Position numbers and translations under genes: made by a program. A DNA stretch of 62,830 nt, counting the filler, from Sphacelaria rigidula (lineage: Eukaryota), in assembly GCA_964200075.2 (NCBI GenBank). It is 7 parts of 7 records of this genome, joined end to end, with 100 filler letters (N's around TTAATTAATTAA, not from the genome) between each part and the next. Parts side by side here need not be neighbours in the genome. Positions count along the whole stretch, not along the records: positions 1 to 8,891 come from CAXNAA020009825.1; positions 8,992 to 17,882 come from CAXNAA020009826.1; positions 17,983 to 26,873 come from CAXNAA020009827.1; positions 26,974 to 35,863 come from CAXNAA020009828.1; positions 35,964 to 44,852 come from CAXNAA020009829.1; positions 44,953 to 53,841 come from CAXNAA020009830.1; 1 more part is not named here. One strand, 5' to 3'. Position 1 is the stretch's first letter, and every line of letters starts with the position of its first letter. The notes under the pieces were generated by a model. That model saw only the letters and a list, made by a program, of their open reading frames with translations. It ran no database searches and was not told where the DNA came from. Below are positions 1 through 53,362 of this stretch, piece after piece.

Positions 1-68
1 GTACTCATTTGTTGCTTGCCTTAGTCGTTTGACCATTGACCACGCATCCCTTTCGAGACGGAGCACCC
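1..68 (-). mobile_element. Family A dispersed repeat, 3' end (putative 5'-truncated retroposon)
   Basis: Reverse complement of GGTGCTCCGTCTCGAAAGGGATGCGTGGTCAATGGTCAAACGACTAAGGCAAGCAACAAATGAGTAC, which recurs at 17833, 35005, 35964, 48056 and 52455/52525. Confidence 0.8.
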
Positions 69-97
69 GGATGGGGGGGTTCATTATATTCCATGCC

Positions 98-270
98 GTA
101 CTCATGATACCGTTGATCTCGCATCCCTACAAAACCGAGACGGAGTACGCCGGGTTCTCTCTGGACCAGCCTCGCAATCAATCACCAAGCGCGAAGCGCT
201 ATGATGTGTTGCGTAAGTCTCATGAAGGGTGACCTACATCCTGCTGAGATTGTTCGGCCTGAAGCGTGCG
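98..270 (-). mobile_element. Family B dispersed repeat, 3' part
   Basis: Matches copies at 9075-9556, 13315-13588, 14609-15135, 44665-44852 and 53206-53362 (ctcgcatccctacaaa...gacggagYacgccggg...aatcaccaagcgcgaagcgc). Confidence 0.8.
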
Positions 271-582
271 TGGGGGAGGGCTAGAGCGATATTACAGAGA
301 GAGAGAAATCCTCTCCTAGTGCCTTAAAAGTTTACTCAATACCGTCTGACGATGTATAGGCCCGAGTACTGGCTCTACGTAATCGGTATGAATCAACGGA
401 CGCGGAAAAAATGTGTGCACTACGACTGCTCACAAGCACATAACATTTTCGACAGGCAGGAAAAGGAAGGATGCAACAGGATCGTTCACTATTCTGTATA
501 CTATACTTTGTTGTAAGCCATCGACACGTGGCATCGCTGGGGGGATTCAGGCACTTGTACTACTCAGGAATGACCTGATCAC

Positions 583-702
583 CTCGTTGTACATCTTGGC
601 CTCCGCCCTTTTTCTCCTGAGCTCGAGCACGGTGTCTCTTTTGTCTTTGTACGCCTTCAGTTCGCGCCCCACCTCGCGAGCGACGCACACCTCGGCCACC
701 CA
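583..702 (-). CDS. Internal exon, probably of an OSCA/CSC1/TMEM63-like membrane protein (WVAEVCVAREVGRELKAYKDKRDTVLELRRKRAEAKMYNE)
   Basis: cag|TGG acceptor, GAG|gtgatc donor, 120 bp open frame. The 'VAEVxVA' plus coiled-coil pattern fits the cytosolic loop downstream of the exon at 6344-6438. Confidence 0.55.
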
Positions 703-2164
703 CTGGGACGATCGAATTTTCAGGATAGAGCGATCAGTGGGGTTCGGATTCAGCGTTGTGCCTAGCGTTTAGGGCTGGCGTTGAAGGGTAGGTGAAGCAA
801 TAAGGCTCCAGTTCAGGGATAGAAACATGAAAAGGATGAGGACAACGTTACAGAACCAGAAGAGACGTGAGGTGTGGGGTGTAACAAGAGGATTAGCCTT
901 AGTCATAGGAGTGGCCGTAGGTATTTCGGAGCTTGGGTTTTCCACAACGGTAAAGGTTTGCAAATATGGCGTTTTCGATATGATGTTTGCTACTGACTTG
1001 GAACGTGGGGCTTCAGTACAGTCCGTGGTTACCCTCTCGTCCAGCGCGCCACACGGCGACAAATTTCACGCGTTTCTGACCCCTAGCAAATGGAGTAGTA
1101 CTACATACATACACAAGTCGTAGGGAATATTTCATGCTCATGATGATGTAAATATTGACAGACGAGTCTTGGGAAATCTGTAGAACCTGCTTACACTAGT
1201 AGTTGGCGACCCTGCTCGTCAGGCTAACGGACTGCTACAGTACGTGTCGTCGCTTTGTTCGACGCACTACGCAAAAACGCCACCTACTGTATCAAGGGTT
1301 TGGTTTTGCAGTATTACTATAGCAACAACGGCGACACCAACAGTCGCCTCGATTTTGGCCCCCAGGAAAAATACCCAACGTTTGCTTGAGCGCGGTTAAG
1401 AACGTATGCGTAGAAGAAACAGACAGGGTTGGGCGGTTGGGTGGGTCATGTTCTTTGAGATCCAGGTGGACGATATTGACAGGCCCGTTGTCTCGCAACC
1501 ATGTGTCTGTAGCATCGGGCGGCAACTGAATAAAATTATGATTTTGTGCATCACCACCTGAACTGATTTGGCTGTACTGAGCTTGCCTAACAAAGGTACT
1601 GCATGTGGGCATTGAATGTTTGATGCCCACATGGGTCAGCGCAGAAGATGACTGGTCGGGTACAATAGGAGGCATATAATATATATACATATACTCCGTG
1701 CTAGAACAAAATCGACTATACGGCTGTTTTCACTTGCCGGAATTCTTTGCGAGCCGGTTCTGTCCGGTAGTGTCAGGAGATGACCCTATGCAACGCGACA
1801 TGTACTCGCCTAAATCTAAACAAAAACTCTCATCAAACAACGCGATACACGATGTGCCACTCGCACCTTCCCGAGGTACCACTTGTCTTCCGTGTTGTCA
1901 GAGCTGAAAACTGGCTGTGCGGCAGCGTACGGCGGCCTCCCTTTCCAATCCGGACTTTCCAGCTGGTAGAGATCGCTGAGATAGGCAAGAGCGCATTTGT
2001 GACCGACCACATTGATCTGATTGATCTGATTGGTGTGGTTGAACTGATCGATTGTCGCACTTTGACCGATTCCCCAGGAGTCATGATCCAGGCGTGGTCA
2101 CATTATGGCAGTACCCTAGACAAAACAAGACTGAAAAACTCGCTGAAATACATATGTATACATA

Positions 2165-2507
2165 ATAGCCGATCATCGAAATTGAGGATGGAGCTTTTCA
2201 TTGACAATGAGAACCCGGAGAATTGGAATCTTCGTATTCACACCAAACCTTCGAAATTTGGTTCCATTCCTTCACGTACTGGTAGCGTTTGATCGCGAAA
2301 ATTCTGCGAAACTATTTTTCACCTAGGACCCCAACATTTCGATTATCGAAATCCAACTTTGTATGGCATGTAGTAGTTGCCAATAGCTACCAGTAGGGGA
2401 AGGAACTGAGCCATATTTCGAAGATTTGATGTGCATACGAATATTTGAATCCTCCGGGTTCTCATCCCCAATGAAAAGCTTCATCCTCAATCTCGATAGT
2501 CAGCTGT
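2165..2507. mobile_element. Fold-back MITE (ACAGCCGATC family), internally deleted copy
   Basis: About 120-bp imperfect inverted arms, TA at both flanks, homologous to 3888-4330. Confidence 0.8.
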
Positions 2508-3768
2508 TATATATATATATATATATAACTGGAATATGTGCGTAAAGGCACCTTCCGAGATGCCGTTAGCGTCGGTCTATCTATCTATATAAAAGGGTTA
2601 TTCCTGTAATAATTGCCTGTTTTGGTCCGTTAATTATTTCAAATGGCTGATATTTCGCGAAATTTGTTCTTACGGTGATGTAATATGCCTCTCTATCGAC
2701 GCGTGTCTGCATGCACGTGTACTGTACGTATATGGAGCAGGAAAAGTGGTGTTGAAAGTTGGCTCGCGGACAAGGTACTTTATCACGATAGCCGTAAGAC
2801 TAATCTTTGCTTTGCAGAAATGGTGTACGGGTGGAATTTAGGATGGAATGGGACAGGAGACGCGATACAAGGATTGTCGTACTTATCCAGCGAGGCATCT
2901 TTCGAATATTTTGACGTGGTAGTCGCAAGGTTATCATGCTCTTCCAGTCTGACATGTTGTGGGTATTGAGCGTAACCATCGTTTCCCACGTCTCAAATGA
3001 ACGCCGTAGTTTTTGCGGCCTTGCTTGTATGTACCGCATCTCTCATGAACAGGTAACACATGAGTAGGCAGGAGTATCTGGATGGTGTTTCATCCCCTGT
3101 ACTGTTTCAGGAAAGTACCCTAGAGTGGTGCTAGAGTAGGGGTGCATGCACAAATATTTTGCGAGGTCGGAATTGTGATGAGCCCTCTATCTCACCAAAA
3201 TATGAGTTCTGAAAAATGAGCACGCCACGATCAGCATTCCAACAGGCTAGGGATATCCCGAATGAATTTGAAACCGGAAATGTCACGACCCATATTCTTG
3301 TGTAGCTCCTAACTTTAGGAGCCCCAGAGTGAGAAGGATCTGGGCCTCACTGTGCTACCCCTACCGCACCATGACTCCCTAACCGTATGGAATCAAGTGA
3401 TTTGAGAACGCCATTTCACTGGGAAGATAATCTTATTGATATCGCAGTAACCGGATTGCTTGTCAACATGTTCTACGAAGACACCGATTGTCCATCGTAT
3501 TTCTTATTTTTAGTTATGCATGGAAAAAAACGAAACGTATGCGAGGCATTTCCCCTTGATGTATTGCATGGGATTGGTGCTGCCGGCGGTTGTTGACAAA
3601 AGTAAATAATGGTAAGCACGTGAACAAACAGGAACCTGCTACGACGAGACCAAATTGCCCTCAACCTGTTATTGTACCCAAAAGACACTCGACCGACGAA
3701 ATCATTTCATGTGGAACTCGCCATCTGACATTTCGTTCCACGACCGAGGGTTTCCGAATCCGACGCGT

Positions 3769-3876
3769 GTATGTATGTATGTATGCACGTATGCCATGCA
3801 TGCATGCATGCATGTATGCATACATGCGTGAATGTATATATGCATGCATGCATGCATGTATGTATGTATGTATGTA
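3769..3876. repeat. (TATG)n/(TGCA)n microsatellite; continues at 4331-4450 after the MITE
   Basis: Visible tetranucleotide repeats on both sides of the MITE. Confidence 0.9.
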
Positions 3877-3887
3877 CGGAACATATA

Positions 3888-4330
3888 GCAGCCGATCATC
3901 GAAATTGAGGATGGAGCTTTTCATTGAGATTGAGAACCCGGAGGATTGAAATCTTCGTATCCACACGAAATCTTCGAAATATGGTTCCATCCCTTCACCT
4001 ACTGGTAGCTATTGGCAAGTACTACACGTTATGCAAAATTGGATTTCGATAACCGAAATGTTGGGGTCCTAGGCGAAAAACAAAATTCGGGGAATTTCGG
4101 CGACCCGATCGGATCACCCAAGTTCCCGAGAATTGTTTTTTCATCTAGGACCCCAGATATTTCGGTTATTGAAATCCGAGTTCGTGAGACGTGTACCAAT
4201 TGCCAATAGCTATCAGTATGTGAAGGAATGGAATCATATTTCGAAGATTTCGTGTGGATACGAAGATTTTAATCCGCTGGGTTTCCATCCTTAATGAAAA
4301 GCCCTGAGCTCAATTTCGATGATCGGCTGT
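3888..4330. mobile_element. Fold-back MITE (ACAGCCGATC family), full-length 443 bp
   Basis: Palindromic over nearly its whole length (ta|gcagccgatcatcgaaattgag ... ctcaatttcgatgatcggctgt|ta), with TA flanks. Confidence 0.88.
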
Positions 4331-4566
4331 TATATATGTAATTAGGTTTGTATGTATATGTATATGTATATGTATGCATGTATGTATGTATGTATGTATG
4401 TATATATGTGTGGGTATGTGTGTGCGTATGCATGCGTGTATTTGCGTGTTATGTATATTCGAGATAATGTTAAGGCCAACAGTTTGACCACCGAACCATT
4501 CTCATCCTGTGTTCATTGCCTCCTTGTTCACGCGGATGACACTACAATACTGTACATGCTCTCTAC

Positions 4567-4725
4567 CCTTGTGGGTTGTTTTGTGCGGCCGGGTACACCA
4601 GGGGGCGGCTCTTTCCCACTATAATTTGTCGGGGGTGCATCATATATGCGTGAGAAGCAGGCAAGGATAGACTCTTGAGCTTTGGTCTTCGGAATAATCA
4701 AGGCAGGGAACTTCTTCATTTCGAG
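4567..4725 (-). CDS. Possible additional exon of the contig-1 minus-strand gene (LEMKKFPALIIPK...KQPTR)
   Basis: Pyrimidine-rich cag acceptor, gtagag donor, 159 bp open frame. No recognisable motif. Confidence 0.3.
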
Positions 4726-4826
4726 CTGGCACGGGGAGATCACGCAAACAGAGGGAAGTCGGCCACGCGACGATTAGTGAGAGAGAAGAAAACATCACGT
4801 TACTGCACTGCACCGCACTGCACTAG

Positions 4827-5210
4827 ACACGCGGCCATTCGGCTACCCCCAAAAATACTCTGTTCCAGTCAACTTTTCGAGCCTCCAGATGGATGAAACG
4901 CCTCCAGAGGGTACGCGGCCCTCGAGGGGAGTGGGATAAAAAAAACGCCTCCAGAGGCTTGTTTTGCCTCTGGAGGGCCACGCATCCCTCCGGAGGAATT
5001 TGGAGGATGCACGACCCTCCAGAGCACCAATGTTTTTGTTACTCTCGAGGGTCCAAACCTCAGAAGTCACTGGAGCATCAGATGCCCTCCAGAGGATTCG
5101 CTTATGACCGTACCTGGGGATGAAATACCCTCGAGACAGTATTGTTATCTCGAGAGGATGAAAATCGCGATAGACGATTTTTTCATGGGGGTAGGCGAAT
5201 GTCTGCGTGT
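4827..5210. mobile_element. MITE with ~23-bp TIRs and internal CCCTCCAGAGG repeats
   Basis: ACACGCGGCCATTCGGCTACCCC ... GGGGTAGGCGAATGTCTGCGTGT; many internal CCTCYRGAGG units; related copy at 59054. Confidence 0.75.
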
Positions 5211-8010: not shown

Positions 8011-8825
8011 GTGTGACCAAAAGCAGATGTCCGTCTGGCGTACTGATGATGCCACGGCTTGGCACGGCTTCGCGTGTGGTGTCGAAAGTGGTGGCATCCT
8101 AATTGGTTCGTGCCTATGTTTCGTGCCTGTGTTGTGTCCCCAGCTTCACGGTGTGTCGAATGCTGCTCTACATCGGAGTCCTCGTATTTCGTCCTCTTTT
8201 TGTGGCACGCAGATGAGGCTAACTTTTGGGGTGTGCGGCGGGCAGTCTCCACGAAGGTATATCGTAGACATGCATACACCTCATGGTATGTGAGGCGATG
8301 TGATACAATGCGATCGGTGGAATCGATCGATTGTCGCTCATCAAGATTAACCCAATACCCATCCGTGGTCACAGAAAGGACGCACCCAACGGGGAAAAAA
8401 GAAGAGAAAAGAAAACACGGGAGCACACGCTGGATGGAAGTCAACAGGGCGGAAAGACCGAAAAAAAATGAATAGGCACCAAAGTAATGACGATAGAAGA
8501 GGAGAAGACAAAATCAAAGCGAACAAAAACTAACGGGGAAAGAAAAACAGGAAAAGATTGTGCCAAGATATGGTAACACTGTCGTGCCCAGATCTAGTAC
8601 CAGCCCGCGAAAAACACCAGCTGGGGCCCCTGCGGCGCGGTGTCAGGTCAGTAAGGAAGCCTGCTTGAAAAGAAGTAGATGTATCCCGTACCCTGATGAA
8701 CCAAACCCTCGTGGCAAAAAGGAGCGGGCGTTCTTTAGATGAGTCCAAGCAAATGCACCAGGCCATGCTCCAAGAAGTCGTTACTAATGAGTGTCCCTAC
8801 GATACCCCCCCCCACCCCTCCCCAC

Positions 8826-8891
8826 GTAATGAGCGCCGGAATGTTGGGGGTGTCTCTATTAGGAGTAGGAAGGGTGCTCCGTCTCGAAAGG
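8826..8891 (+). mobile_element. Family A repeat, cut by contig end, preceded by a C-tract
   Basis: taatgagcgcc..aatgttg..ggtgtctctattaggagtaggaa.ggtgctccgtctcg is nearly identical to 48010-48069. Confidence 0.8.
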
Positions 8892-8991: not shown

Positions 8992-8994
8992 TTC

Positions 8995-9556
8995 CGGCCA
9001 TTTAGGGATGCGAGGTAAATGCTTTAATGACAATGGACCGCACGATCATGAGTACACCCCCCCCCCCCTCCTGATGACTGGCGTCGGTTGGCGAAGGTGC
9101 TGGGAAACACACCACTCACTACGTAAGCTAGGCAACCAGGTTGCCGTTTTTTTTTCGGTGTCCATTATGGTGGTCGAGTTGGATCATATTATACGGGGTG
9201 GATGACCTTAACTCCGCGCAAAGGAGATGTTCGTACTGCGTGGTGTAGAAATGGTGAGGCACCCATGAGGCAGTGTGTAACCCGTGGATGTCGCTGGAAG
9301 TAGCGACACCAGAGAATGAAGCGACTCATTGTGGGCTGCCGTCTAAATGGAATATAATCAGTACGCTTCGAGCCGAATAATCTTGGCGGGATGCAGCTCA
9401 CCCGCCATGCCTCTCGCCGCACACGTCAGGGCGCTTCGCGTTTGGTGATCGATGGCGAATCTGGTCCGGCGAAAACCCAGTCTGTATCATCCCGGCTATG
9501 TAGGGGTGCGAGGTCAATAGTGATCAGACTGTGTCATGCAATGTCATGTACCCCCA
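8995..9556 (+). mobile_element. Two tandem family B copies (short 3' end 8995-9070; ~480-bp copy 9075-9556)
   Basis: Each ends in catg(a)gtac plus a C-run; the long copy aligns with 14631-15135 on the opposite strand. Confidence 0.8.
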
Positions 9557-9773: not shown

Positions 9774-12399
9774 GTTCGTGCGACGATCAATCGAAGTGCA
9801 CCGTAGTCGCGGTATTGTACGGGCACGCGGTCGTTCTGTGTGTTTCTCTTGCGTGTGTTATGCGTGTGCTGTGTGCGTTCCATGTTTGTGCGCGCGTACG
9901 TGGACCCCCCTTTCAGCAGATATTTGTTTTTAGTGCCCCCTTGTGCTTTCCGAACGTGATACAATCAGTGTACGTGCTTGTTGTTTTTCTGCGAGAGCTG
10001 AATGGGTGGGCGGAGTATCTCTGCGCAATATTTCTTGTGTTGGATGTGGACCTGCGTGGCCTTGGTTCATGGAAGAGTACCCGCGGGGCCGGATTCCGAT
10101 CCCATACTGACCTGAGCCAAACTGTAATTGTGTCTTGGGTTGCGGTGTAACCGCAGGTTCAACCAACCGCCCTCTAGAATATGCATGTTGATCGTCGTTT
10201 CTGTAAAGGATGGGGGGCGCGGTTTTTGTTTCTGTTTTTCTGTTTTTATTTCTATTTCGTGTTAATGGTATGGGTCTGGTTGCTTCCTGTGTGTGCTGGC
10301 ATCTTCGTATATTTATGATGACCGCATGTATGTACTACGACTGCTGGGTCGGTCACCGCTACATTCTGTTTGACTGTACTGAAACGAGAAGGTTGCTGAT
10401 GGTCATATTGTTCGCAGCCCATGCACGAATGACTTTTTGGACGCACGGCGTATGCGTGGGTGGCGGTCGTTTTTTTGTATGTAGGCGTTCTCTCTACACC
10501 AAGAACAGTTATTGCGAACTTCCCCCCCGTCCCCCCGTCCCTCTTATGGCAGACTGTCCGTGTAGCATCCAACTAGGGGTCGGAGCGGTACATGTAGTGT
10601 GTCCAAGAAGCTTGCGTATTTCACGTCTTGTCTGTTGTCCGAGGGTAACGCTTTCAAATCGTGTTGATGACCTTGGTGTTGGATGCCAGTGTCGTCCGTG
10701 ATAGTCGTGTTCAGCGGGGATATTGTTGATTTTCATTCGTCCAGGTTCGTTTTACAGTACCTCTTTCTCGCCGACAACCGCGCCTGCCTGGTCTGTTATG
10801 CCATCTCCTTTCCTTTCCGCACCCGTTTCATGTTGAAAGGTAAGTCTTTCGTTATTGCCAATCGCGTGTAGAACGTCATGTTCCTGATAACTGAAAGTGC
10901 CTCAATCTTATAAATGCTGTACTGTTTTGGTTGCCACATGCACATGTCACAGATGACCCCTAGATCTACCGTACCACCTGCCGCACACGGGAAGTCGAAA
11001 AGTTTCTGGCACAGCGCAGACCTCACTACATGTCGGAGAGAAACGTGCGCTCCAATTGAACATGATGTAGAAGTGACCCCCCTGTTATTTCTGTGCTGCG
11101 GACGGCTGGTTGAGGTGTGACGTGGTTGCTGGTCATGACTGGCGTGGTCAGGCTCGTGCCGACTACGCTAGCAAAGTCGTTTTTTCATTCTTGTAACCTC
11201 ACCGTAAACGAGGTTATGAGGGCCAGATTGTAACACTCCCAACCATGGGATAAGTGGTGCAAAATTTGGGTTATGTCAAAGGATGAAGTGCAGAGGATGC
11301 TGACAGGAAAGAGAAAAGAGACATGAAAAAACGGGACGTATTTTGTGTAGATGTATGGGTCGAAATAGGCCTACTTTTGGACTAATTTTCGGATTTTCTT
11401 CGAGATGTTTCTGAGATTATCTTGTGAGAATTCCTGGGGGGGAAAATGGGAGTAGAACACCTTTGCACGCCAAGCCCCCTGTGTGTTTTTCTTTTCTAAT
11501 TTCAACTCTGTTTTCGCCCCTGGAATAGAGGCGAAATACAGCCTCTTTCAGGCCGATTGATTTTTGAACAGGTGGTTCGGCCACCCAATGGGGCGACGTG
11601 CACACGTGAAACCGAATAAAATCGACCCGAAAAAAAAAAAAAAAACGAAATAATATGACACACCACGCGTCCGCCACGGTCAAGGGCCTGTGTAAACGTA
11701 AGATAGTTTTACTTTATGAGACAGAGGAAGTGTATATTGTAATACGGACTGTTGTTTCTTTTGTTCTTTGAAGGAATGAGGAAACCTGATCTAACACTCA
11801 CCCCGCAAGCGAGTTCGTGTGCCGATCACCCGGAGGCTTGGGGGCCATGACTGCCTCACGTCAGTCATGTGGGGTAAGCGCCTCGAGTATTCGCATGCTT
11901 TGCTCGAGACGTTGTAGGGGCCCGACGCACGAACCCCCCCGTCAATTTGGCGCAGTACGCCGACTGATATACGCGTATTGCCTGTCACGATGGCTCTCCT
12001 GTAGTTTAGGCGCGAGGTCTTGTCCTTGCACACCAGTGATGAATCACAATGATCAGCCCACGTCTGCACTGATACCCAGCACCACGGGCGGTGAAATGCC
12101 GTGTAAAAAACTCTTTGCTTGATTCTTGCGCGCGTTCTAAGTCCGATTCGTGCCCCGAGCTGGTGACGAACAGGTGGTTGATCTAGGGGAGTCTTGGTCA
12201 TGGTATGATGTACGATGTAGCTCCCCTCCCCAAGAAATCGTTTCATGGAAAGTGGCAGCGAAAATACATGTACAGAAAGGACGCTTGGCGCACAAGGGGC
12301 GTAACCGTGTGGCGAAAGTTTCCATGTTGACTTTTTCAAGGACAGGAAGGCTAGAAAAAAAAGAAAGGAACCGGTTCCGATGGAATAATACTGTTACTC

Positions 12400-12660
12400 A
12401 ATATTTCAATAGTCCAATAGTCCAATAGTCCAATACTTCAAACCTTCAACCCTTCAACTTTTCAACACTTCCAACACTTTAATATTTCAAATATTTCAAT
12501 ATTTCAATATCTCAATATTCCAACACTTCATTTCTTCAATACTCCAACACTCCCATGTTTCAACATTTCAGTGCTTCAATACTGCAATAGTTCTGTACTT
12601 CAGTACTTCAATAATCCAAAAATTCAATACTTGAATACTTCGACAATTCAATACTTCGAT
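12400..12660. repeat. Degenerate ~8-bp minisatellite (TCAATANT)n in an intron
   Basis: Repeating ttcaata/tccaata/ttcaaca units. Confidence 0.8.
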
Positions 12661-12710
12661 AAAATTGCCCCTGCTCTCTGCCCCCCTCCCACCCCGCCTT
12701 TCCCGTTAAG

Positions 12711-13314: not shown

Positions 13315-13588
13315 GCGATGCCAGAAAGTGAAGCAACTCATTTTAGCCTGTCATCCATATGCAAGACAACTAGTACGCTTTGGACCGAACAATCTCAGCA
13401 GGATGCAGCTCACCCTTCATGCAATGCGAGTCGCCAAACACATCACGGCGCTTGGCGCTTGGTGGTTGATTCCAAGCTTCGTGCGGCGAAACCCTGGCGT
13501 GCTCCGTCCCGGCTTTGTAGGGATGCGAGGTCAATGGTCATATGACTACAGCATGCAAGATCATGAGTATACCCCCTCCCCCCCCCCG
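13315..13588 (+). mobile_element. Family B copy flanked by C-tracts on both sides
   Basis: C-runs at 13286-13310 and 13572-13587; ends gcaagatcatgagtatacccc. Confidence 0.85.
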
Positions 13589-14125: not shown

Positions 14126-14608
14126 TTGAATCGGTGCAAGCCTATATTATTATCTTGAGTGATTACACCAGATATCCCCGCAGCTACTGTACGTTTAAGT
14201 AGCATTCGGATACAGATCGTACATCATATCTACATATATATTACTTGAATTATATTTGCTTCTTTTATACGACCAAGATCAAAGAAACTCTTCCCCGCTA
14301 CTCGCGGTTATGTTGATTTTGTTCTGTTGCCTCATTTGCGATGTATATTGTGGTATGCACGCATACATACACACACATGTACATATGCTTGTGTACACCT
14401 GTCACTGTGCGTGTATCCGCTTCTATGCTCGTGTGACGGGCACGTAAAGAGAGGTGGGGGGGGGGGGGGGACCCTCCTGATTTTGGGGGGCGGGGGTTCC
14501 TGGCCATTGGCCCCGCCTCCCTACAAACCCGGGNNNNNNNNNNTTGTGTTTGTGTTCTTGTTTTTTTTTGTTTTTTCTTTCTTCTGTGGTGGTGGCCGGG
14601 AACGGAAA

Positions 14609-15135
14609 GGGGGGGGGGGGGGGGGGGGGGTACACTCATGATCTTGCGTGCCGTGGTCTCATGACCATTGGCCTCGCATCCCTACAAACCCGGGACGGAG
14701 TATGCCGGACTTTCGGCGGACCAGACTCGCAATCAATCACCAAACGCGGAGCGCCCCGGTGTGTGTAACGAGTCGCATGAGGAGTGAGCTGCATCCTGCT
14801 AAGATTGTTCGGCCTGAAACGTACTGATAATCTTCCATTTGGACGACAGCGTTCAATGAGTTGCTTCATTTTTCTGGTATCGCTACTTCCAGAGACAGCC
14901 ACGGGTTCCACACTGCCTCATGGGTGTCTCACCATTCAACTACCACGTAGTATGATCATTTCCTTTGCGCGGAATTGAGGTTTTCCCACCCCGCACAACA
15001 TGATCTAGTCCGATCACCATGATGGTCACCGCCAGAAAAAAAAAAAGCAAGCGTGCAAAAAAATCGGTAACTTGGTTGCCTAGCGTACGCTGTGAGTGGC
15101 GTGTTTTACCGCGTCGTTGTCGACCGACGCCAATC
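14609..15135 (-). mobile_element. Family B, longest copy (~500 bp) with a ~22-nt G-run (poly-C tail)
   Basis: G-run then tacactcatgatcttgcgtgccgtggtctcatgaccattggcctcgcatccc; G-rich tract also at the other flank (~15155). Confidence 0.85.
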
Positions 15136-15354
15136 CCAAAAATATATATGCGGCGGGGGGAGGGGGGAAGGGAAGAAATTAATGCGTGGTCTCGTCCACT
15201 GTGGTGTAGAGGCCCGGATATCACATGAAATGTTCCAAAAACGTTAGTGCCTGATGTCGTACACGTGTCCTCCCCCTCGTGTTTTACTGCCTTGGTATAC
15301 TTCTGGGGCTGGGGGTGGGGTGCGTACGCTGCTTGGGGTGGTGTGATCTTGCAG

Positions 15355-16738: not shown

Positions 16739-16918
16739 ACACTCGGGACAATATATATGGTCAGTATAGTAGTTACAAACAACAGTGATGTACTGTGTAA
16801 AGTATAGGCCTATTGCAACGACTTGTGTCGGCCGACACTAGTTGCAATAGGCCTATACTTTACGGAGTACATTTTTCGTCTACGGAAACTTTTGGCCATA
16901 ATTTTTTGTCCAGGGTGT
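16739..16918. mobile_element. Palindromic MITE, CACACCYTGGACAA family (subfamily 2)
   Basis: Central palindrome gtaaagtataggcctattgcaac...gtcggccgac...gttgcaataggcctatactttac. Confidence 0.8.
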
Positions 16919-17548: not shown

Positions 17549-17724
17549 CACACCCTGGACAATATATGGTCAATAGATACATTAGACGAGAAGTGTATTG
17601 TATAAATATAAAGTATAGGCGTATTGCAACTATTGCCGGCCGACAATAGTCGCAATAGGCCTATACTTCATGCAGTACGTTTCTTGTCTATTGTAACTAC
17701 TGACCATATATTGTCTAAGGTGTG
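17549..17724. mobile_element. Palindromic MITE, CACACCYTGGACAA family (subfamily 2)
   Basis: cacaccctggacaatatatggtca ... tgaccatatattgtctaaggtgtg. Confidence 0.85.
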
Positions 17725-17819
17725 CAACCTTGCCAAACGCCTTCACTTCCGCAGTCGCGACGAGTACGTGCATGGTCTCGGGAGATGGATGAGAGGCGTC
17801 CCGCGATAGGTGTGTGTGT

Positions 17820-17882
17820 GGGGGGGGGGGGGCGTACTCATTTGTTGCTTGCCTTAGTCGTTTGACCATTGACCACGTCTCC
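17820..17882 (-). mobile_element. Family A 3' end with G-run, cut by contig end
   Basis: G13 then cgtactcatttgttgcttgccttagtcgtttgaccattgaccacg, identical to 1-44. Confidence 0.85.
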
Positions 17883-25471: not shown

Positions 25472-26190
25472 CAGGCTGGTACATGCTAATTACCCAAAAT
25501 TGTGTCATCAGCAAATGCCTTTCGCAATACCTACCCAATAGTCGCATACGTGACATCATACTGCCCGCCATGGACAGCTAAAGAGCGTGACATCGCCGGA
25601 TTGGTATTTTGGGGCCATGGTGGTGGCGCAAAGGCGGCACCTCGACCAATCAGCGCCCGCCAAATTGTTCCGAAATCGAGGATACGAATTCCAAGCCCAA
25701 TATTCACCTAATCTCTACATGCGTTCATAGTAACCCCTAGCAGCTCGAGAATCTTGAACAGCGGAAAAACATATTTGAAAATAGTCAATACAGCATCAAA
25801 TTATACCCGCAACTGTGGTGTTTCGGTGATGTGGGGTTTTGGCGTCGTCTCGTCTCCACTGACGATACGCACGAAAGACCCAGGGAGCCTCGTAACAACT
25901 TCCCTTGTATCTGCCGTAGAAAAACTCAGATTGCCCTCAAACGTGGCAGTTCCGTAGGTGTTGATGCTTTCAATAAGAACGTGGATTCTGTAGAGTTTCT
26001 TCATTTTCTACCGGCTTCCGGGGGTCCCACTGTGAAGATTCCCGGAACGTGGTACAGGATGCCTCAAAAGGAACAAGAATGAAACGATGCGTCCCAGGAT
26101 AGTCCAGTGAACATATGTATAAAGTTTTATCGAGAAACTCGAAAACCTCATGCAGTTTTTCTCGCCTCAACCAAGGTCTGTCAAAAATAT
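25472..26190 (-). mobile_element. One end of the CAGGYTGGTTCAC TIR element (homolog of 62040-62721, inverted)
   Basis: caggctggtacatgctaattaccc-aaaattgtgtcatcagcaaatgcc matches the reverse complement of 62675-62721; co-linear for ~700 bp. Confidence 0.75.
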
Positions 26191-26690
26191 ATTTTGGAAC
26201 ACGTAGGCCCCAAAATCGAAAATTCGAGTTTTTGAGGGGGGGCGGATAAGGGGGGGTAAGGGGTCGGGGGGGGGGCACGTCCAGCCTGCTATCCTCTAGT
26301 TTATTGTCGAGGCGTTGGCGGATGCGGTCAGTTGCCATGTACAGAGATTCTCGTCATGGAGACCGCTGATATGACGGACATACAGTCCTCCAAGCTCATC
26401 ACCTACCATGATTACATTTATGGGATGATGTTTCGTATCGTGTGCCTCAACTTTTACCACTAGTAGTCTGGGCAAATTTGGCGAGGCGTCAGATAATGTT
26501 TCTACTTTTGCTACGGGCTGTCGCTATCGTGCGCTCGTGTATTGTACATAGACATATGTGAGCGTTGCCGGTATCCGAGGTCATCGGGACAGGGCGGGCA
26601 AGGAGCAGAGCCAGATATACGAACCTCGCAAAACCCGCCACACTTTTCGGTTTTTGTCAGTGTTTGTTGATCAATTTCCTTTATAAATTT

Positions 26691-26860
26691 CACACCTTGA
26701 ACAATATATGGTCAACAGTTGCAATAGACAAGTAACGTATCGCATAAAGTATATGCCTATTGCGACTATTGTCGGCCGACAGCAGTTGCAATATGCCTAT
26801 ACTTTATGCAGTGCACTTCTCGTCTATTGCATCTATTGACCATATGTTGTCCAGGGTGTG
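26691..26860. mobile_element. Palindromic MITE, CACACCYTGGACAA family (subfamily 2), 170 bp
   Basis: cacaccttgaacaatatatggtcaa ... ttgaccatatgttgtccagggtgtg. Confidence 0.85.
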
Positions 26861-34400: not shown

Positions 34401-34898
34401 TCACTAGGGGTGGCTGCTGCTTTCCATTAACCACCGGGGGAAAAGAATTTTCGGGATCGCCGGCCGGAGCTCCTTGCTTGTACGTCAACATCTCGGTGTG
34501 CCCGCCGCCGATCTTCTGCCAGCAGTCTGGCATTTTCCCCCTGATTGTGCTGCCGTAGGGGTCGGCAAATGTGACGTGACCCTTTGATTCACCGTGAAAC
34601 ATTTTCCCTTTTGCTCTGACCGTTTGTGGGCCACCATGATGGCTTCGTGATGCGGGTAGAAATATAATTTCTCTTCTCTCCTCCGAGAGCCCCCGTGTTT
34701 GCTGGAATATTCGATGAGGACAGGGTCTTCTTCGAGCGCCATGGTGTGGTCTTGAGTGATGGCGTCTGTGACGTCGCGCAGACGGGTCGGCGACAGCGAG
34801 GGCCGGGGCGGGGCGGGGCGGTCGGGCGGGGGGGGGGGGGGGGGCACCTCTTTTTTTGCTTTTTTTCGCCATTTGACCATTGACCGCGCCACNNNNNN

Positions 34899-34949
34899 TG
34901 GGGGGGGGGGGGGGGGGGGGCGCGGGGGGGGGGGGGGCGCGGGGGGGGG

Positions 34950-35006
<57 letters not shown>

Positions 35007-35290
35007 ATACTCGTTCTTTGCTTGTCTTCGCCATTTGACCATTGACCGCGCGACACTTAGCCGGAGCACCGTTCCTGCACCTAATAAATACTTCCAACAT
35101 TTGGGCACTCATGACGTTTCTTCCATGCATGACCCAAAATTCTTTACAGATCTTATCCCCTTCCTGCTTCACCTTCTGTGGCCACCATCTATATCTGAGT
35201 ATAGCGATCGTTTTCTCGCTACAACTCCAAGTACCAAACGATTCTATACCACCTTCATTTATATCCCGCGTTTCCCCCTCTATGTATTGC
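34899..35290 (-). mobile_element. Family A, longest copy (~290 bp plus ~105-nt G-run), carrying an ORF C-terminal remnant
   Basis: Translates ...ESFGTWSCSEKTIAILRYRWWPQKVKQEGDKICKEF / WKKRHECPNVG / IRCRNGAP...VNGQMAK, then the shared tail. Confidence 0.8.
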
Positions 35291-35963: not shown

Positions 35964-36013
35964 GTGGTCAATGGTCAAACGACTAAGGCAAGCAACAAAT
36001 GAACGCCCTCCCC
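35964..36013 (+). mobile_element. Family A 3' end at contig start
   Basis: gtggtcaatggtcaaacgactaaggcaagcaacaaatga followed by a C-rich run. Confidence 0.8.
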
Positions 36014-43624: not shown

Positions 43625-44640
43625 TTCGGCGTGCCCCCCCCCCCCCCTGATGCTGGCGATTCTCCACCAGTTCCCCGACGGCACGAGGGCGTGTGTGCGA
43701 ATGGACGTGCTCCAACTACTTCGACGTGGGCCAGGGGCTCCGACAGGTGTACAACCTGGCACCCGATGCCGCACTACCGCTTCTTCGCCGCAATGCTAAT
43801 ACTGTCAAGAGACGACTTCGCCAAAGACGATGAGGTGACCGCGAAACACGATAAAACTCGAGAGAGAGAGAGAGAGAGAGAGAGAGGCAAGGGAAACGGG
43901 GGAGATCACGATGGCGGAGGTCGCGGAGCCGCTGCGGGGCACGCTATACGCCGACGACACGGGTATCGTTTCGCAATCGCCGGAGAGCCACGAGAAGATG
44001 ACGTGGACCATTGCGCGCGGTTCCGGTTTGCTTAGGCTGACGGTGTCGGAGCCGAAGACGAGGTACTCATTCAGGATCAACACCGGTGGCCAGGTATACA
44101 AGCAAACCACCCATCAAGCTTGTGTGCCTCGGGGGGACTATTTGCGAGAATGGGAAGGTGGACGAGGAGATGATAAATCGCCCGGATCAAGCATGAAGAT
44201 GCTACAGGCGGAATGGTCAAATTATATACGGTCGTGGGGAGCTCTCTTCCCGGCTCAAAGTGTGCCCCCGCTTCAAGCCGAGGTGCTTGACACCCCTCTG
44301 CACGAGTACAAGACGTGGACCCTGTCGAAGAAATAACGCGACAAGCTCGACGGGGTCCACCGCTATTTCTTCACACGCTGCATCGGGTGGAACAAGAGGA
44401 CGCGCACGGACCTCCCTCTGAGGTACGCCGAGGTCACCCTCAAGATCGACTGCACCGAGTCGCTCGAGGCTACCGTGCGCAACCGTGCGCAACCGAAGGC
44501 TACTCTTCGCGGGATTCGCCATGCGCATGGGAGACGACCGTCATTCGAAGCGTGTCATGCTGGGAGCGTTGGAGGGGAGAAGGAGTACAGAGGAGGGCAA
44601 GAGCTAGGTTACATGCATTAACTGGAAGTTGACTTTAAGT
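43625..44640 (+). mobile_element. Decayed LINE (RTE-like) reverse transcriptase and C-terminal region
   Basis: Frameshifted MLAILHQF.DG.RACVR, FDVGQGLRQ, FFAAML, LYADDTGIVS, LTVSEPKT, LGGTI, RCIGW, LFAGF..RMGDDR..KRVM.G motifs. Confidence 0.88.
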
Positions 44641-48008: not shown

Positions 48009-48143
48009 CTAATGAGCGCCCAAATGTTGCAGGTGTCTCTATTAGGAGTAGGAACGGTGCTCCGTCTCGCGAGAGATGCATGGTCAATGGTCAAGTGACA
48101 AAGGCAAAGCAATGAATGAGTACCCTCCCTCCCCCCTTCCCCC
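48009..48143 (+). mobile_element. Family A copy flanked by C-rich tracts
   Basis: Ends gcaatgaatgagtaccctccctcccccc. Confidence 0.85.
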
Positions 48144-48168
48144 TGTCCATGCATTTGCGGTACATCAG

Positions 48169-48423: not shown

Positions 48424-50202
48424 GTGAGGGTCTTATAGTGATGGAGGGGGGGGGTGGTCTGGTCATTTCTGACGTGTTGTTTATCCCAAGTAGATGGCGA
48501 GGACGCCACAGCTTTACCGCATTTGTGCCGAACATACCGGAGCGATCCGAGGAAAACGGGGGCGGAGGGCGGGAGGCGGGAGGAGGGACCGCAGTGGAGC
48601 ATCATAGTGTGAAGTATGACTGAGAGCACGAGGACGAGTGGTCTGTGTTGGCCGTTGGCCGTTCTCGAGAAACGAATGAGTGGACGACACTCCAGGGTGG
48701 GAGTTTCGTGGTGTACTAGGATCAGTCGCACATAATCGCAGCCGCATTTTCTCCCTTGTCCGTGAAGAGTTCGTGCAAAATTTGGAACACGTACGACGAT
48801 TCCCGAGGGGCTGCAGGCATATGTCGGGACGGTGTTTTGCGAGCCGTTCTACAGTGCTCTACTTGTTGGCAGCTTCATAATCTATCGCGACGGCGAGTTT
48901 TACACAGCAGTCGCACTTTGTCTGTGCAATAATTATTTGAATCGTTCAGAACGCGTCTCCGAGACGCCGGAGAAGCTCCGCAAACCGCCCACGAGCGATG
49001 CCTTGAAAGCTGGTTTTTGCTCGCTCGGCATTTCTCATGGCGACTGGCCACGAGGCACATCGAGGCTCTTTTGTTGGAGTGCGGTGTATTTGTGGCGCTT
49101 ACGGAACGATGTATTCTCCCGCTAAAGGCAACTTTACACACCGTTATGTGCATATCTTTTGCGTCGTGCACGAGAATGGCTGCTGAAACTAACCCTATGT
49201 TGAACAGCGATGCCATTGCCGCCACGGGCTTGTCATGCGCGAAATGCTTGACACAGTGACAGCTCCAGTCGTGCTGTGGCGCACGGAGCCTGTGGATTTC
49301 CTCTGCCACATACTGGAACATCTTCTTTTTTTTTCTCGTTTTGTTGTCGCAGGTAGGTCGCAGTGCCGTCACCGAGAGCGAATCGTGTTTACTGATGGTC
49401 CGGAAATCTGTTTCTCTGCCGCGATTTTTATTTTCTTCTTATTTTATTTATTTGTCGCGCTGCGAACCCCTTCCTTTTCTCGGGACGAGTCCGTGGTCTC
49501 GAGGGATCAACCCATCTCTCTCCGGTATCCGGCGATGTTGGGAATATTCCCCGCGATACGCCAACGTATGTGTTCTTTCTTGCCGGTGTACGCCAGAGCA
49601 GTTTGGTTCCTCGCTTCCGTAGGGTCCATGGATGAGAGGTTTTATACCCAAACTAGTGAGGTCGTTGTAGAGGAGCCGCGACCTTTTCCCACGGCCGTTT
49701 GTTTTTTTCGACTGGGGATGAGTGTGGTTCCTCCGCAAGACCTTCGACCGAAGCCATGTAGCAGAGGCCGGCCATTTTCTCTTCTTTTTTTTTTTTCTCC
49801 CTCTCTTCGTCTACTCTGTTGGCTGCTTCAGGTATTACTGATTTAATTGATTGATTGTCGCACTTCAACTGACCCCCCTCCCAGGGATTCAGTCGTGAAC
49901 ACATGATAAGATGTACCCGAGACAAAACAAAACCGAAACACTCGCTCAAGAGAAAGAAAAAAAAAGGAGCAAACAGAAAAGTTAGAACAGACCAACAGAG
50001 TAGACTGCTTCAGGCACGGGAGGCTCCCGGATTATCGTATAGCCTCTTGTCAGCCGCTACGTGCGCCATGTTGTGCACTTCAATATTATACCCTACACGA
50101 TCTTCAAGTGTCTCCCCTGTCCCACCATGCTCCGCTTGCGTCGTGTTTCTGCCTTCTAATATTTATTGTGTATTACTCCGTATTCCTAATCGGCTGCTTC
50201 AG

Positions 50203-50265
50203 GCACGGGAGGCTCGAGAACAGCAACAGCGGGAGAAGCGCGAGCAGCAGGAGCGCGAGAAGCGC

Positions 50266-50307
<42 letters not shown>

Positions 50308-50326
50308 AAGGAGAAGGAGCAGCTGC

Positions 50327-50365
<39 letters not shown>

Positions 50366-51490
50366 CTCAACGCGCGGAGAAACAGAAACAGCATCAACGT
50401 CAAGACGCCGACAAGAGAGGTGGGAAGCAGGGCTTCGAGGGCGAGACGGAGGAGGAGACAAGGATACGGCTTGCGAAAGCAGACAGGGAGAGGAAGGACA
50501 AGGCGGCCGCAGCCCAGAGAAAGCGACGGCATATGATTCAACAGCAGAAACTTGCGAGGGAGGCTGAAATGAGGGAAGCGGCGTTGGCAACGGCAGCTGC
50601 TAAGGCGGCTACCGGGGCGGCAGGCGGGATAGTTGCAGGAACAAACGGCAACACTGGCGATGCGGCAAGGGTCAGCAACGCGGAGTTGCCGGTGACGACC
50701 AACCCGCCGCCGCCGAAGAGGCTCAAGACTAATGCCACCGGCGGTGCGAAGAAGAGGGGCGTGGACAAGCAGCACTCGCAGCTCAAGAGGAAGACGGGTA
50801 GCAGTAGTGCTGACGTTGTTACGAAGCTGGCAATGGGCGCGGTGCCTGCGACCGAAATTCCGGGGGGGGGAGCGGCGGAGGGACGCCCAGCAACTCCAGC
50901 GGTAGCTGTAGCAGTAGCAGCAGGATCGAAGGAAGGAGCACTCGCCCCGCCGCCAAGGACGGCAGGCGAACTCGGTAACAGCAATATTAGCGGTATCGGC
51001 GGCGAGAGCGGCAGCAGCAAGGCAAAGCTCAAGAAGGGCGGTGCTGCAAAGACGAGGCCCGCAGCAAAGTCCAAGATTCGCGGCAAAGATGGACCCCACT
51101 CCAACGGCGGCAAGAAAGACGGGCCGGGAGGAGCAAGCGTGCCCCGGAAGGTCGGCAAGAAGGCCCAGCGAGACGCCAGCGCTGCGGCGGGGCTAGCCGC
51201 TGCCGGCAGAGAGGGGGCGGCACGAGGAGGCGCAGCGGCAGCGGTGGCGGTGGCAGCGGCGGCGAGCGGAAGCGGTAGCCAGCTCGCGCAACGGCAACAG
51301 CAGGGCGTTTCGTTGGGGGTTTCGGGTTCGCCTGTGGAGACAGTGGTGGCGGGGGCCGGGATATCGTCGCTGAAGACAGATGATGAATCGGAGGGTGGTG
51401 GCGGTGGCGGCAGCGGCGGAGGCTCTGGCTTTCCGGTCGGTAGCAGTGGTGTTGAAGGCAGCGGCGGGGGCGGGGGGAGAACGGAAGGAG
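50203..51490 (+). CDS. Large exon: polyQ/coiled coil followed by an A/G/K-rich disordered region with NLS-like PPPPKRLK
   Basis: cag|GCA acceptor, G|gtgaga donor, 1288 bp open frame, (CAG)n tracts. Confidence 0.85.
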
Positions 51491-52454
51491 GTGAGATTGA
51501 TCATGGAGGCGACATTTTTATTTTGAGTTGCTGTATTTTTTGTTGCTTCGCCATGATTTTGTGATGATGCTTTTGCGGTATTGTGCACTTCTTTGATGCG
51601 GTCATTGTTTTCTGTTTTTTCGTGTCGAGGAGTAAAGGGGGGTCCGCTGTTTCGTGATGAAGCATGTAGATGTCGGCTAGAGCGGGGTATGTTGGTTCGT
51701 GTATACTCACAAGCCACATGATTTCGTACCGTGGGCCAAACGCGGTCAAGAAGGCTTGCCAAGATGAATTGTGGGAGCGTGAGTTAGATCACGGGCGGGG
51801 CATCAAAATATGACAACCTTATGGCATGCCAAAAAAATCATTCCGAGTGAGACCCTCGCTTTGGGTTTTCGTTTTACATGTAGTCAGAGGACGTGCTCCC
51901 TGGTTGTGTGACGGGGGGGGGTTAATGACTCCGTTCCCTGGCATTTGCCGTCTGGTACGTGTGGGGCACTCGGGGAATGTATTCCAACCGCGGGTTTGCG
52001 AAGAGCTGTTGCAAGAGGCAAGGATGGGATATCACAAGCCCTCACACGACAAAATCGCAGAATCTTTTTTTCGGGCTAAAGTAGAAAACGGATCCAATCC
52101 CGAGGACGCCCGTTGGTCAGACGCTGTGTTCCATCGTGTTACCCAGCTGGAGAGGGTTTGCTTTTTTTCACGTTTTTTTCTTCTACACTAGCTAGAAATT
52201 GGCCTAGGACAGATACTGGAATGCCGCTGCTGAAGGGGCATGTATTCCAATAATGTTGCAGACGACAGTTTCACCAGTGTGATACTACGGACATGCTATA
52301 TTTATACGTGAAGTGCACGGCGACGTTATTGTGAGCATGCGAGATACGTGGAATATATGTGAATGAGGGGATCTCCAGTGCTCCCATGACCAACGGGAAT
52401 CAAACGATCTTGTGATTTAATGTGATCAACAATACCCCTTCCCCCCGCGCGCGC

Positions 52455-52610
52455 GATGGTCAATGGTCAAACGACTAAGGCAAGCAACAAATGAGTACGT
52501 CCCCCCCCCCCGCGCGCCCGCGCCGGTGCTCCGTCTCGGAAGGGATGCATGGTCAATGGTCAAAGGACTAAGGCAGGCAACGAAGGAGTACGCCCCCCGT
52601 CACCCCCGCT
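52455..52610 (+). mobile_element. Two tandem family A 3' ends, each followed by a C-run
   Basis: 52455-52511 and 52525-52610, preceded by a C-run at ~52435-52446. Confidence 0.85.
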
Positions 52611-52813
52611 CACCCTCACGCTCTTGACATGATGGTGTCGAGTATGAGAGTGGTGAAACGAACCAAGGCTTGAATCCCAGCCTTGCGAAGGAGGGTTAGT
52701 GAAGTCACAGTAGAGTCTGTGAGAGGAATAACATGTGTGTTTGCGTGTGCAGTGTCAATCCTCCGGACAAATGTATGGATGAATGTTTACATGCCGTACC
52801 GTAAAATACACAG

Positions 52814-53175
52814 GGAACGATACCAGACTCAGCCCGGCTGCCGGTGCCGGCGGCGGCGGAGGTGGAGGGAAGGGCACCGGTAGGCGCAAGGCTGGAACGG
52901 GCGCAAGACGCGCGCGCAAGCAGTCGGGGGAGGTGAAGTCCAAATCGTCCACTCCCGAAGGTCAAGCTCTGGTGGGCAAGACAATCAAGCTTCACCGCGA
53001 TGACGTTGACTACCCGAACGGCCGCTGGTGCGTGGCGGACGTCCGCAAGTGGAGCAGCGCTCAGCGCAAATATCTTCTGGCGTACCATGGCCGTGGACCT
53101 GCTTGGCTGCCCCCCGGGTGGCTAGAGCTCAAGGAGAAGAGGAAGATGCAGATTGTGTCGACACCCAACGTAGAG
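52814..53175 (+). CDS. Exon with a Tudor-like domain (ALVGKTIKLH...GRWCVADVRKWSSAQRKYLLAY...WLEL)
   Basis: cag|GG completes phase 1 from the previous exon; GAG|gtgtgg donor; 'LVG-K-x-I...W-x-x-x-x-V-x-x-W...Y-x-L-x-Y...W-x-x-L' Tudor-like pattern. Confidence 0.7.
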
Positions 53176-53205
53176 GTGTGGGCTTGCTGTGACGCGCACG
53201 CGCAA

Positions 53206-53362
53206 GGGGGGGTGTACTCATGATATTGCATGCCGTAGTCATCAGACCATCGGCCTCATATCCCTGCAAAGCCGGGGTGGAGCACGTCGGGTTTTCGCCG
53301 GACCAGGCTCGCAGTCACCAAGCGCGAAGCGCCGTGATGTGTACGGCGAGTCCCACGAGAGG
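53206..53362 (-). mobile_element. Family B copy
   Basis: gggggggtgtactcatgatattgcatgccgtagtcatcagaccatcggcctc... Confidence 0.85.

What the first reader, a model, noticed from the sequence alone, without database searches (positions are those of the whole stretch)
1..53362. Two abundant repeat families share a structured 3' end and finish in poly(C): candidate C-tract-targeting retroposon system
Seen in the sequence: about 8 family A copies (1, 8826, 17820, 34899, 35964, 48009, 52455, 52525) and about 8 family B copies (98, 8995, 9075, 13315, 14609, 44665, 46782, 53206) on five unrelated contigs. They have variable 5' ends and a fixed 3' end. The bodies differ, but the last ~75 nt align: A GTGCTCCGTCTCG-AAAGGGATGCGTGGTCAATGGTCAAACGACTAAGGCAAGCAACAA-ATGAGTAC versus B GTGCTCCGTCCCGGCTTTGTAGGGATGCGAGGTCAATGGTCATATGACTACGGCACGCAAGATCATGAGTAC. 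A C-run follows, never an A-run, and most copies also have a C-rich run at the 5' junction. Established: 5' truncation and a shared 3' tail are hallmarks of target-primed reverse transcription by stringent LINE/SINE partners, and some non-LTR elements target microsatellites. Inference: one RT mobilises both families into oligo(C) tracts and/or adds poly(C) tails, which I do not know as a described behaviour. The family may already exist in brown-algal repeat libraries.
Basis: partly seen in the sequence, partly recalled or inferred. Interest (0 to 1): 0.72.

Follow-up and report, generated by a model that had tools for sequence, protein, structure and literature searches.

The report
Brown-algal C-tract LINE and hitchhiker
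The two repeats are the cut-off ends of a 6-kb jumping gene (a LINE retrotransposon) and a short non-coding partner that shares its two ends, both sitting in C-rich spots that they likely target; a matching pair was described in the brown alga Ectocarpus in 2025, so this is likely a known system seen in another genome.

Summary
In detail: all 16 copies are at the stated places on five of seven joined contigs, the two tails are 83% identical, and C-runs, not A-runs, follow them. Family A is the 3' end of a 5.8-6.1 kb LINE with one endonuclease + reverse transcriptase frame that stops 5 nt before the element's end. Family B is a ~567-nt non-coding element sharing the LINE's last ~70 nt and a ~40-nt piece of its 5' head. 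Target-site duplications that start inside a C-tract (15 of 140 copies, control 16 of 3,000 pairs) show that the C-tract mostly pre-exists; a few extra Cs appear at the 3' side. I could not read their consensus files, so the match rests on description plus 75% protein identity of a close relative to an Ectocarpus protein. Small additions: the 3' signal lies inside the ORF across many relatives, and B has sharp 5' ends at both copies of an internal 50-nt repeat.

The parts
1..67 (-). Family A: last ~67 nt of the LINE (codes for the last 20 residues of the ORF); 3' flank cut by contig start
   Evidence: 95% identical to P0002 residues 1341-1360; C7 at the 5' junction
81..269 (-). Family B, 5'-truncated (~190 nt), rearranged tail, directly upstream of the A copy
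8824..8891 (+). Family A, 5' end ~121 nt from the element end; tail cut by contig end
   Evidence: C9 run at 8805-8813 upstream
8994..9056 (+). Family B tail; 5' cut by contig start; followed by C12
9079..9548 (+). Family B, ~500-nt form starting at the head shared with the LINE; begins just after the C12 of the previous copy
13315..13571 (+). Family B, 5'-truncated (~255 nt), C-rich on both sides
14471..14533 (-). Degraded B tail beside a scaffold gap (possibly an assembly duplicate)
14631..15138 (-). Family B, ~500-nt form; C22 at 14609-14630
17833..17882 (-). Family A tail; 5' cut by contig end; C13 at 17820-17832
34848..34889 (-). Degraded A tail beside a scaffold gap (possibly an assembly duplicate)
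35005..35282 (-). Family A, ~280 nt or more of the LINE 3' end; very long C-run beside a gap
   Evidence: tblastn to P0002 residues 1239-1358 reaches 35361
35964..36008 (+). Family A tail; 5' cut by contig start
44695..44852 (-). Family B; 5' cut by contig end
46781..46945 (+). Family B with most of the shared tail deleted; C11 upstream, C34 downstream
48010..48123 (+). Family A, ~118 nt, pyrimidine-rich on both sides
52455..52500 (+). Family A, ~45 nt, C-run plus (GC)n on both sides (duplication-like)
52524..52593 (+). Family A, 70-nt form in tandem with the previous copy
53213..53363 (-). Family B, ~150 nt, followed by C7

Best explanation
Family A is the 5'-truncated 3' end of a ~6-kb single-ORF endonuclease + reverse transcriptase LINE, family B is a ~567-nt non-coding element sharing its ends, and both are likely inserted by the LINE protein through target-primed reverse transcription at pre-existing C-rich tracts. 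Shown: the LINE anatomy, the shared tail and head, the C-rich flanks and target-site duplications that begin in a C-tract. Inferred: the endonuclease nicks the G-rich strand at the edge of the tract; the RNA, which would end in a few Cs read through from the donor's own C-run, pairs with that G-rich primer (the mirror image of L1's poly(A) on a T-tract); the RT recognises the last ~70 nt; a second nick about 9-17 nt away gives the duplication. Each insertion duplicates a C-tract and so makes new targets, which would explain the A/B clusters. By description and protein homology this is likely the Ectocarpus RTEX-1/RTEX-2 + RTEX-N1 system.
For: A copies extend 5' into RT and AP-endonuclease coding sequence; near-full-length copies measure 5,833, 5,919 and 6,058 nt with a common 5' end; 682 endonuclease candidates, 152 matches. 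Intact relative P0002 (1,360 aa): Exo_endo_phos E 3.4e-12, RVT_1 E 9.8e-31, ends in the residues coded by the A tail. An independent metagenome contig (L152, 88% to P0002) ends in the same tail plus C8. Exact duplications of at least 9 nt with at least 4 non-C bases: 9 of 64 A, 6 of 76 B, against 16 of 3,000 mismatched pairs; an earlier pass gave 7 of 25 A, 0 of 29 B, control 15 of 2,862. B shares only the head (B 61-104 with LINE 12-52, 80-90%, E 5e-10 to 1e-5) and the tail with the LINE; longest Met-ORF 44-89 aa in 4 copies. P0006's cluster holds named Ectocarpus proteins, one 74.8% identical to P0002 over 783 aa. Published entries match in length, (C)n end, C-rich TSD, 83% tail identity, weak 5' homology and tandem occurrence.
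Against: 125 of 140 copies show no clear duplication by my strict test (age, pure-C duplications and boundary error could all hide them). No empty orthologous site could be compared (no relatives are held). No intact ORF was seen in this genome: the copies I translated carry stops and frameshifts and the longest open frame among 150 listed endonuclease matches is 478 aa. Mobilisation of B by A's protein is inferred from shared ends only. RTE-X membership was not tested on a tree, and the published consensus files could not be read.
Confidence: 0.85

Rival explanations
1. The C-runs are mainly added tails (non-templated addition by the RT, or a poly(C) tail put on the RNA), and the elements insert with little sequence preference.
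For: In several duplicated sites the 3' C-run is longer or purer than the copy at the 5' junction: L033 C12 against an interrupted tract, L050 C9 against C6, L035 C6 against C4, L043 C10 against an interrupted tract.
Against: The 5' junction, which no tail can reach, is C-rich in 39 of 64 A and 51 of 76 B copies against 8.7% background; in L032 and L056 the target accounts for every 3' C; L037 has a 10-nt duplication, no C tail, and a C-rich stretch just upstream.
Confidence: 0.08
2. B is moved by a Penelope-like (Chlamys) element: its layout repeat-body-repeat-tail resembles a pseudo-LTR with a tail, and Chlamys elements target (C)n.
For: B carries a ~50-nt direct repeat at its 5' end and again before the tail and occurs as tail-less tandem units (L002, L120). 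Chlamys elements target (C)n and (CA)n (PMC8557442 sections 9, 15) and exist in Ectocarpus.
Against: B's tail and head both match the AP-endonuclease LINE; no GIY-YIG domain in the intact relative; the Ectocarpus Chlamys-1 entry ends in (A)n.
Confidence: 0.03
3. B is the decayed 3' end of a second autonomous LINE family rather than a non-autonomous element.
For: B shows a 5' truncation gradient like a LINE.
Against: 26 of 30 head loci start within about 2 nt of one position and only 1 continues upstream, into another B body; no long ORF.
Confidence: 0.02
4. The C/G runs are sequencing or assembly artefacts attached to repeats at contig ends and gaps.
For: The longest runs (C54 and neighbours at 34900-35004, C34, C22) lie near gaps or degraded duplicates; 6 of 16 window copies touch contig ends.
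Against: Short C-tracts are duplicated on both sides of internal copies, an independent contig has the same tail plus C8, and the curated Ectocarpus library from a near-gapless assembly records (C)n ends.
Confidence: 0.02

Closest known systems
RTEX-1_Ec32 / RTEX-2_Ec32 (Ectocarpus sp. 7 RTE-X LINEs; Dinatale et al. 2025, PMC12477816, supplementary annotation table)
   Same: Single EN-RT ORF, 5.5-5.9 kb, (C)n 3' end, C-rich TSD, thousands of mostly truncated copies; a close relative of family A's protein is 75% identical to an Ectocarpus protein.
   Different: This genome's copies are older and broken (no intact ORF seen). DNA identity to the published consensus was not measurable here. The readable text and table do not remark that the ORF runs to 5 nt from the 3' end.
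RTEX-N1_Ec32 (same paper; probably the earlier 'Sower' repeat, my inference from both being the most abundant repeat at ~2.5 Mb, PMC3145265 passage)
   Same: ~600 bp non-autonomous, 3' ~60 bp 83% identical to the LINE, weak homology to a LINE 5' end, C-rich TSD, found in tandem, origin of head unknown.
   Different: Here 565-567 nt plus C-run against 604-607 bp. The internal 50-nt repeat and the sharp 5' ends at 97, 504 and 567 nt from the 3' end are not in the parts of the paper I could read.
Chlamys Penelope-like elements (Craig et al. 2021, PMC8557442)
   Same: 5' truncation, tandem insertions, targeting of (C)n repeats.
   Different: GIY-YIG endonuclease and telomerase-like RT, pseudo-LTRs; family A has an AP endonuclease and a LINE RT.
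Stringent LINE/SINE pairs (review PMC3747384, passages)
   Same: Shared 3' tail with a predicted stem-loop.
   Different: There the shared tail comes from the LINE 3' UTR and the SINE has a Pol III RNA head; here the tail is coding sequence and no tRNA, 5S or SRP head was detected.

Membership tests
Ectocarpus RTEX-1/RTEX-2 (RTE-X LINE) | Single ORF with AP endonuclease and RT | tested here: met
   Broken in genome copies, intact in P0002/P0006
Ectocarpus RTEX-1/RTEX-2 (RTE-X LINE) | Length 5.5-5.9 kb | tested here: met
   5,833, 5,919 and 6,058 nt for 3 complete copies; a fourth lacks its 3' end
Ectocarpus RTEX-1/RTEX-2 (RTE-X LINE) | (C)n 3' end and C-rich TSD | tested here: met
Ectocarpus RTEX-1/RTEX-2 (RTE-X LINE) | RT groups with Repbase RTE-X references on a tree | not testable with these tools
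   No named RTE-X reference among the 120 listed homologues; solved structures offer only L1 and R2
Ectocarpus RTEX-1/RTEX-2 (RTE-X LINE) | DNA match to the published consensus | not testable with these tools
   The FASTA supplements cannot be read; indirect link through Ectocarpus protein CAB1110456.1
RTEX-N1_Ec32 (non-autonomous partner) | ~600 bp, non-coding | tested here: met
   565-567 nt, longest Met-ORF 44-89 aa
RTEX-N1_Ec32 (non-autonomous partner) | 3' ~60 bp about 83% identical to the LINE; weak 5' homology; tandem copies | tested here: met
   55 of 66 aligned positions; head match E 5e-10 to 1e-5, 0 of 1,000 shuffles as high; tandem L002, L120
RTEX-N1_Ec32 (non-autonomous partner) | DNA match to the published consensus | not testable with these tools
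SINE in the strict sense (Pol III RNA head) | Head derived from tRNA, 5S rRNA or 7SL RNA | tested here: inconclusive
   No such Rfam hit; best of 59 own tRNAs no better than shuffled tRNAs (25, 36 and 42 of 60 nulls as high; the tRNA set is incomplete); own 5S 30 of 300 shuffles as high; no SRP RNA found to compare
Chlamys Penelope-like element | N-terminal GIY-YIG endonuclease | tested here: not met
   Pfam finds AP-type endonuclease only
Chlamys Penelope-like element | Pseudo-LTRs | tested here: inconclusive
   None seen in the LINE; B has a 50-nt terminal repeat

The most novel reading that the evidence does not exclude
This LINE lineage keeps its RT-recognition signal inside the last codons of the ORF and swaps only the microsatellite it lands in: 25 of 81 relatives end in the same short residue motif, and a relative at 27% identity has a similar terminal DNA motif but sits in (TC)n. 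B's 50-nt repeat sets sharp 5' ends at both of its copies (97 and 567 nt from the 3' end), so it may be an unrecognised internal promoter or RNA-processing element, which would answer the open question of RTEX-N1's head; and G-strand priming by a C-tail would be a natural mirror of L1's poly(A)/T-tract rule.
Probability: 0.3. Interest if true: 0.45.

Novelty: new member of a known kind. Interest (0 to 1): 0.2.

Why it matters
As a discovery it matters little: the LINE, its partner, the shared tail and the (C)n ends are in a 2025 curated brown-algal library. It is useful for annotating this genome, where the two families are very abundant (first-look candidates 2,217 for A, 1,473-3,566 for B; not copy numbers) and break the assembly. 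The mechanism has not been tested in anything I could read: a C-tract-targeting AP-endonuclease LINE with intact relatives in hand is a ready system for asking how nick specificity and tail sequence are matched, and what B's unexplained head does.

Tried and rejected
Penelope-like origin: considered from B's repeat-body-repeat-tail layout, dropped once A proved to be an AP-endonuclease LINE. tRNA, 5S or SRP origin of the head: no support; a pattern search for a Glu-type anticodon arm gave 11 matches, control 7, none a tRNA. Ribozyme in the head: no Rfam hit; by-eye parsing as HDV-like or hammerhead did not fit; the consensus fold of 26 heads has 38 pairs with 1 showing a two-sided change, so no covariation support. 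Terminal hairpin: no compensatory change. Exact-pattern scan of metagenome contigs for the shared head: 0 matches. A genome search with the 67-nt A tail returned nothing, although the window holds it; the tool skips very common words. Earlier findings of the scan: nothing by words or by sequence. Literature searches; none of the listed titles or abstract starts describes a mechanistic study of C-tract-targeting LINEs, but the library lacks most subscription papers and Repbase Reports. No tree was built, for lack of named RTE-X references.
Full report
Setting. The window is seven contigs of about 8.89 kb joined by N spacers, from a fragmented 244-Mb assembly in 27,214 contigs. The closest named relatives of the element's protein are Ectocarpus proteins, so the host is likely a brown alga; I did not test a host gene.

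Observation. All 16 copies are present on five contigs (127 hits against 1 in 20 shuffles). The A and B tails share 55 of 66 aligned positions. Two copies have their 3' flank and four their 5' end cut by contig ends, one B copy lacks most of the tail and one has a rearranged tail. In 218 genome loci chosen by my queries, 140 copies had both flanks: 58 of 64 A and 73 of 76 B have at least 6 C in the 12 nt after the tail, only 2 and 2 have an A5 run within 20 nt, and 39 and 51 have a C4 run within 30 nt of the 5' junction against 433 of 5,000 random windows. Copies lacking a flank or with N in a flank were left out of that count.

Family A is a LINE. Extending A copies upstream gave RT motifs and then an AP endonuclease. 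An endonuclease query gave 152 matches among 682 candidates. Of 20 longer stretches fetched, seven reach a common 5' end also seen in L061; complete copies measure 5,833, 5,919 and 6,058 nt. The layout is a short head, a 63-nt tandem array, more leader, then one long frame. The copies I translated are broken, but intact relatives exist: P0002 (1,360 aa; Exo_endo_phos E 3.4e-12, RVT_1 E 9.8e-31, a C-terminal Cys/His motif seen in the alignment). Eight genome copies match P0002 at 55-64% over summed tblastn pieces, and window 8-67 matches its last 20 residues at 95%. So A's share of the common tail is coding: the stop codon lies 5 nt before the element's end and there is practically no 3' UTR. 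A metagenome contig at 88% protein identity ends in the same tail followed by C8 (L152).

Family B is a non-coding partner with both ends from the LINE. Full copies are 565-567 nt: a ~50-nt repeat R, a short linker, a ~40-nt head H, a body, R again, then the tail. H matches LINE positions 12-52 at 80-90% (0 of 1,000 shuffles as high); apart from head and tail only one weak hit (E 0.065) was found; the longest Met-ORF is 44-89 aa. Of 30 head loci, 26 start within about 2 nt of the start of R, 3 start inside R and 1 continues into another B body. Among 76 copies, 5' ends cluster at 93-102 nt (9, the start of the second R), 504-507 nt (7, the start of H) and 565-567 nt (9, of which 4 are my reference copies); among 64 A copies, 15 end at 66-74 nt, the edge of the shared tail. 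The head shows no detectable tRNA, 5S, SRP or other Rfam origin.

Target or tail. Exact duplications of at least 9 nt containing at least 4 non-C bases flank 9 of 64 A and 6 of 76 B copies against 16 of 3,000 mismatched pairs (earlier pass 7 of 25 and 0 of 29, control 15 of 2,862). Most begin in or just after a C-tract present on both sides, so the tract was there before the insertion. The 3' run is sometimes a few Cs longer or purer (L033, L035, L043, L050), sometimes fully explained by the target (L032, L056), and once absent (L037). 125 of 140 copies give no clear duplication. New copies often follow the C-run of an older one (L100, L108, L109; window 8994 then 9079, 52455 then 52524). I infer target-primed reverse transcription in which the G-rich strand is nicked and primes on an RNA ending in a few read-through Cs; no poly(C) polymerase is needed. 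The nick position, the RNA end and the mobilisation of B in trans are untested.

What is known. Dinatale et al. 2025 (PMC12477816; I read the abstract, part 1 of the first Results section, passages, and part 1 of the annotation table with search hits in three supplements) report that the most abundant Ectocarpus family is RTEX-N1_Ec32, a ~600-bp non-autonomous element with 3' conservation to RTEX-1 and RTEX-2, origin of its 5' region undetermined. Their table lists RTEX-1a as 5,867 bp, single EN-RT ORF, (C)n 3', C-rich TSD; RTEX-2 with (C)n termini; and RTEX-N1a as 607 bp, 60-bp 3' end 83% identical to the LINEs, weak homology to the 5' of RTEX-2, present in tandem, C-rich TSD. Every one of these points fits A and B. 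Of the LINE entries in that table only RTEX-1 and RTEX-2 are EN-RT elements with (C)n ends. The sequence bridge is indirect: P0006's cluster holds Ectocarpus CAB1110456.1, 74.8% identical to P0002 over 783 aa. The consensus FASTA supplements could not be read and bear directly on the identification. (C)n targeting is also reported for Chlamys Penelope-like elements (PMC8557442; abstract and sections 9 and 15 read). From PMC3145265 I saw passages on the 'Sower' repeat, from PMC3747384 passages on stringent LINE/SINE tails and a table giving green-algal RTEX 3' repeats such as (CA)n and (CAA)n, and from PMC11203168 and PMC3905857 passages naming RTEX.

What may be new. Of 120 homologues examined, 81 reach the C-terminal Cys/His motif and 25 of these end in the same short motif as A's ORF (control 85 of 4,050 internal positions; a stricter first pass gave 9 of 15). 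One distant full-length relative (L154, 27% in the best segment) has a similar terminal DNA motif and lies between (TC)n runs; this is one locus. That the residue motif reflects a conserved RNA signal is my inference. The sharp ends at both copies of R point to a sequence-determined start or cut, mechanism untested. Predicted hairpins in tail and head have no covariation support.

Verdict. A real and well-observed feature, correctly read as a LINE-driven, C-tract-associated pair, but a new member of a system already catalogued in brown algae. Interest 0.2.

Noticed in passing
L154:1-5234 (metagenome contig): Apparently complete single-ORF LINE, distantly related to family A, flanked by (TC)n on both sides; its frame also runs almost to the 3' end; its 5' head has a T-loop-like motif by eye but no tRNA by ARAGORN or Rfam.
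   Followed up: partly
P0122-P0237 (protein homologues): 25 of 81 relatives that reach the C-terminal Cys/His motif end in the same short residue motif as family A's ORF.
   Followed up: partly
L061, L100, L107 (LINE 5' region): A variable-length tandem array of 63-nt units in the LINE leader; L061 lacks about 1.7 kb between the array and the endonuclease.
   Followed up: no
L273, L280, L282: 97-nt mini-copies made of B's second repeat plus tail, two with clear duplications; may be a separate short subfamily.
   Followed up: partly
L102:1981-6434: Two long pieces of the LINE in opposite orientation.
   Followed up: no
window 56239-56742 (-): Open frame that looks by eye like the RT/RNase H end of a Copia-type LTR element; not scanned.
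   Followed up: no
window 43839-44336 (+): Open frame with a YADD-type RT motif, not matched by family A proteins; probably another LINE family; not scanned.
   Followed up: no
window 2148-2524 and 3883-4340; 16819-16900, 17608-17727, 26688-26844; 25472-25602 with 62591-62721: Other dispersed repeats, some with long inverted arms (possible MITEs).
   Followed up: no
window 12382-12673: Degenerate 8-nt tandem array.
   Followed up: no
window 34828-35004: Very long G-runs on both sides of a 6-N gap with a degraded duplicate of the A tail; likely partly an assembly artefact.
   Followed up: no
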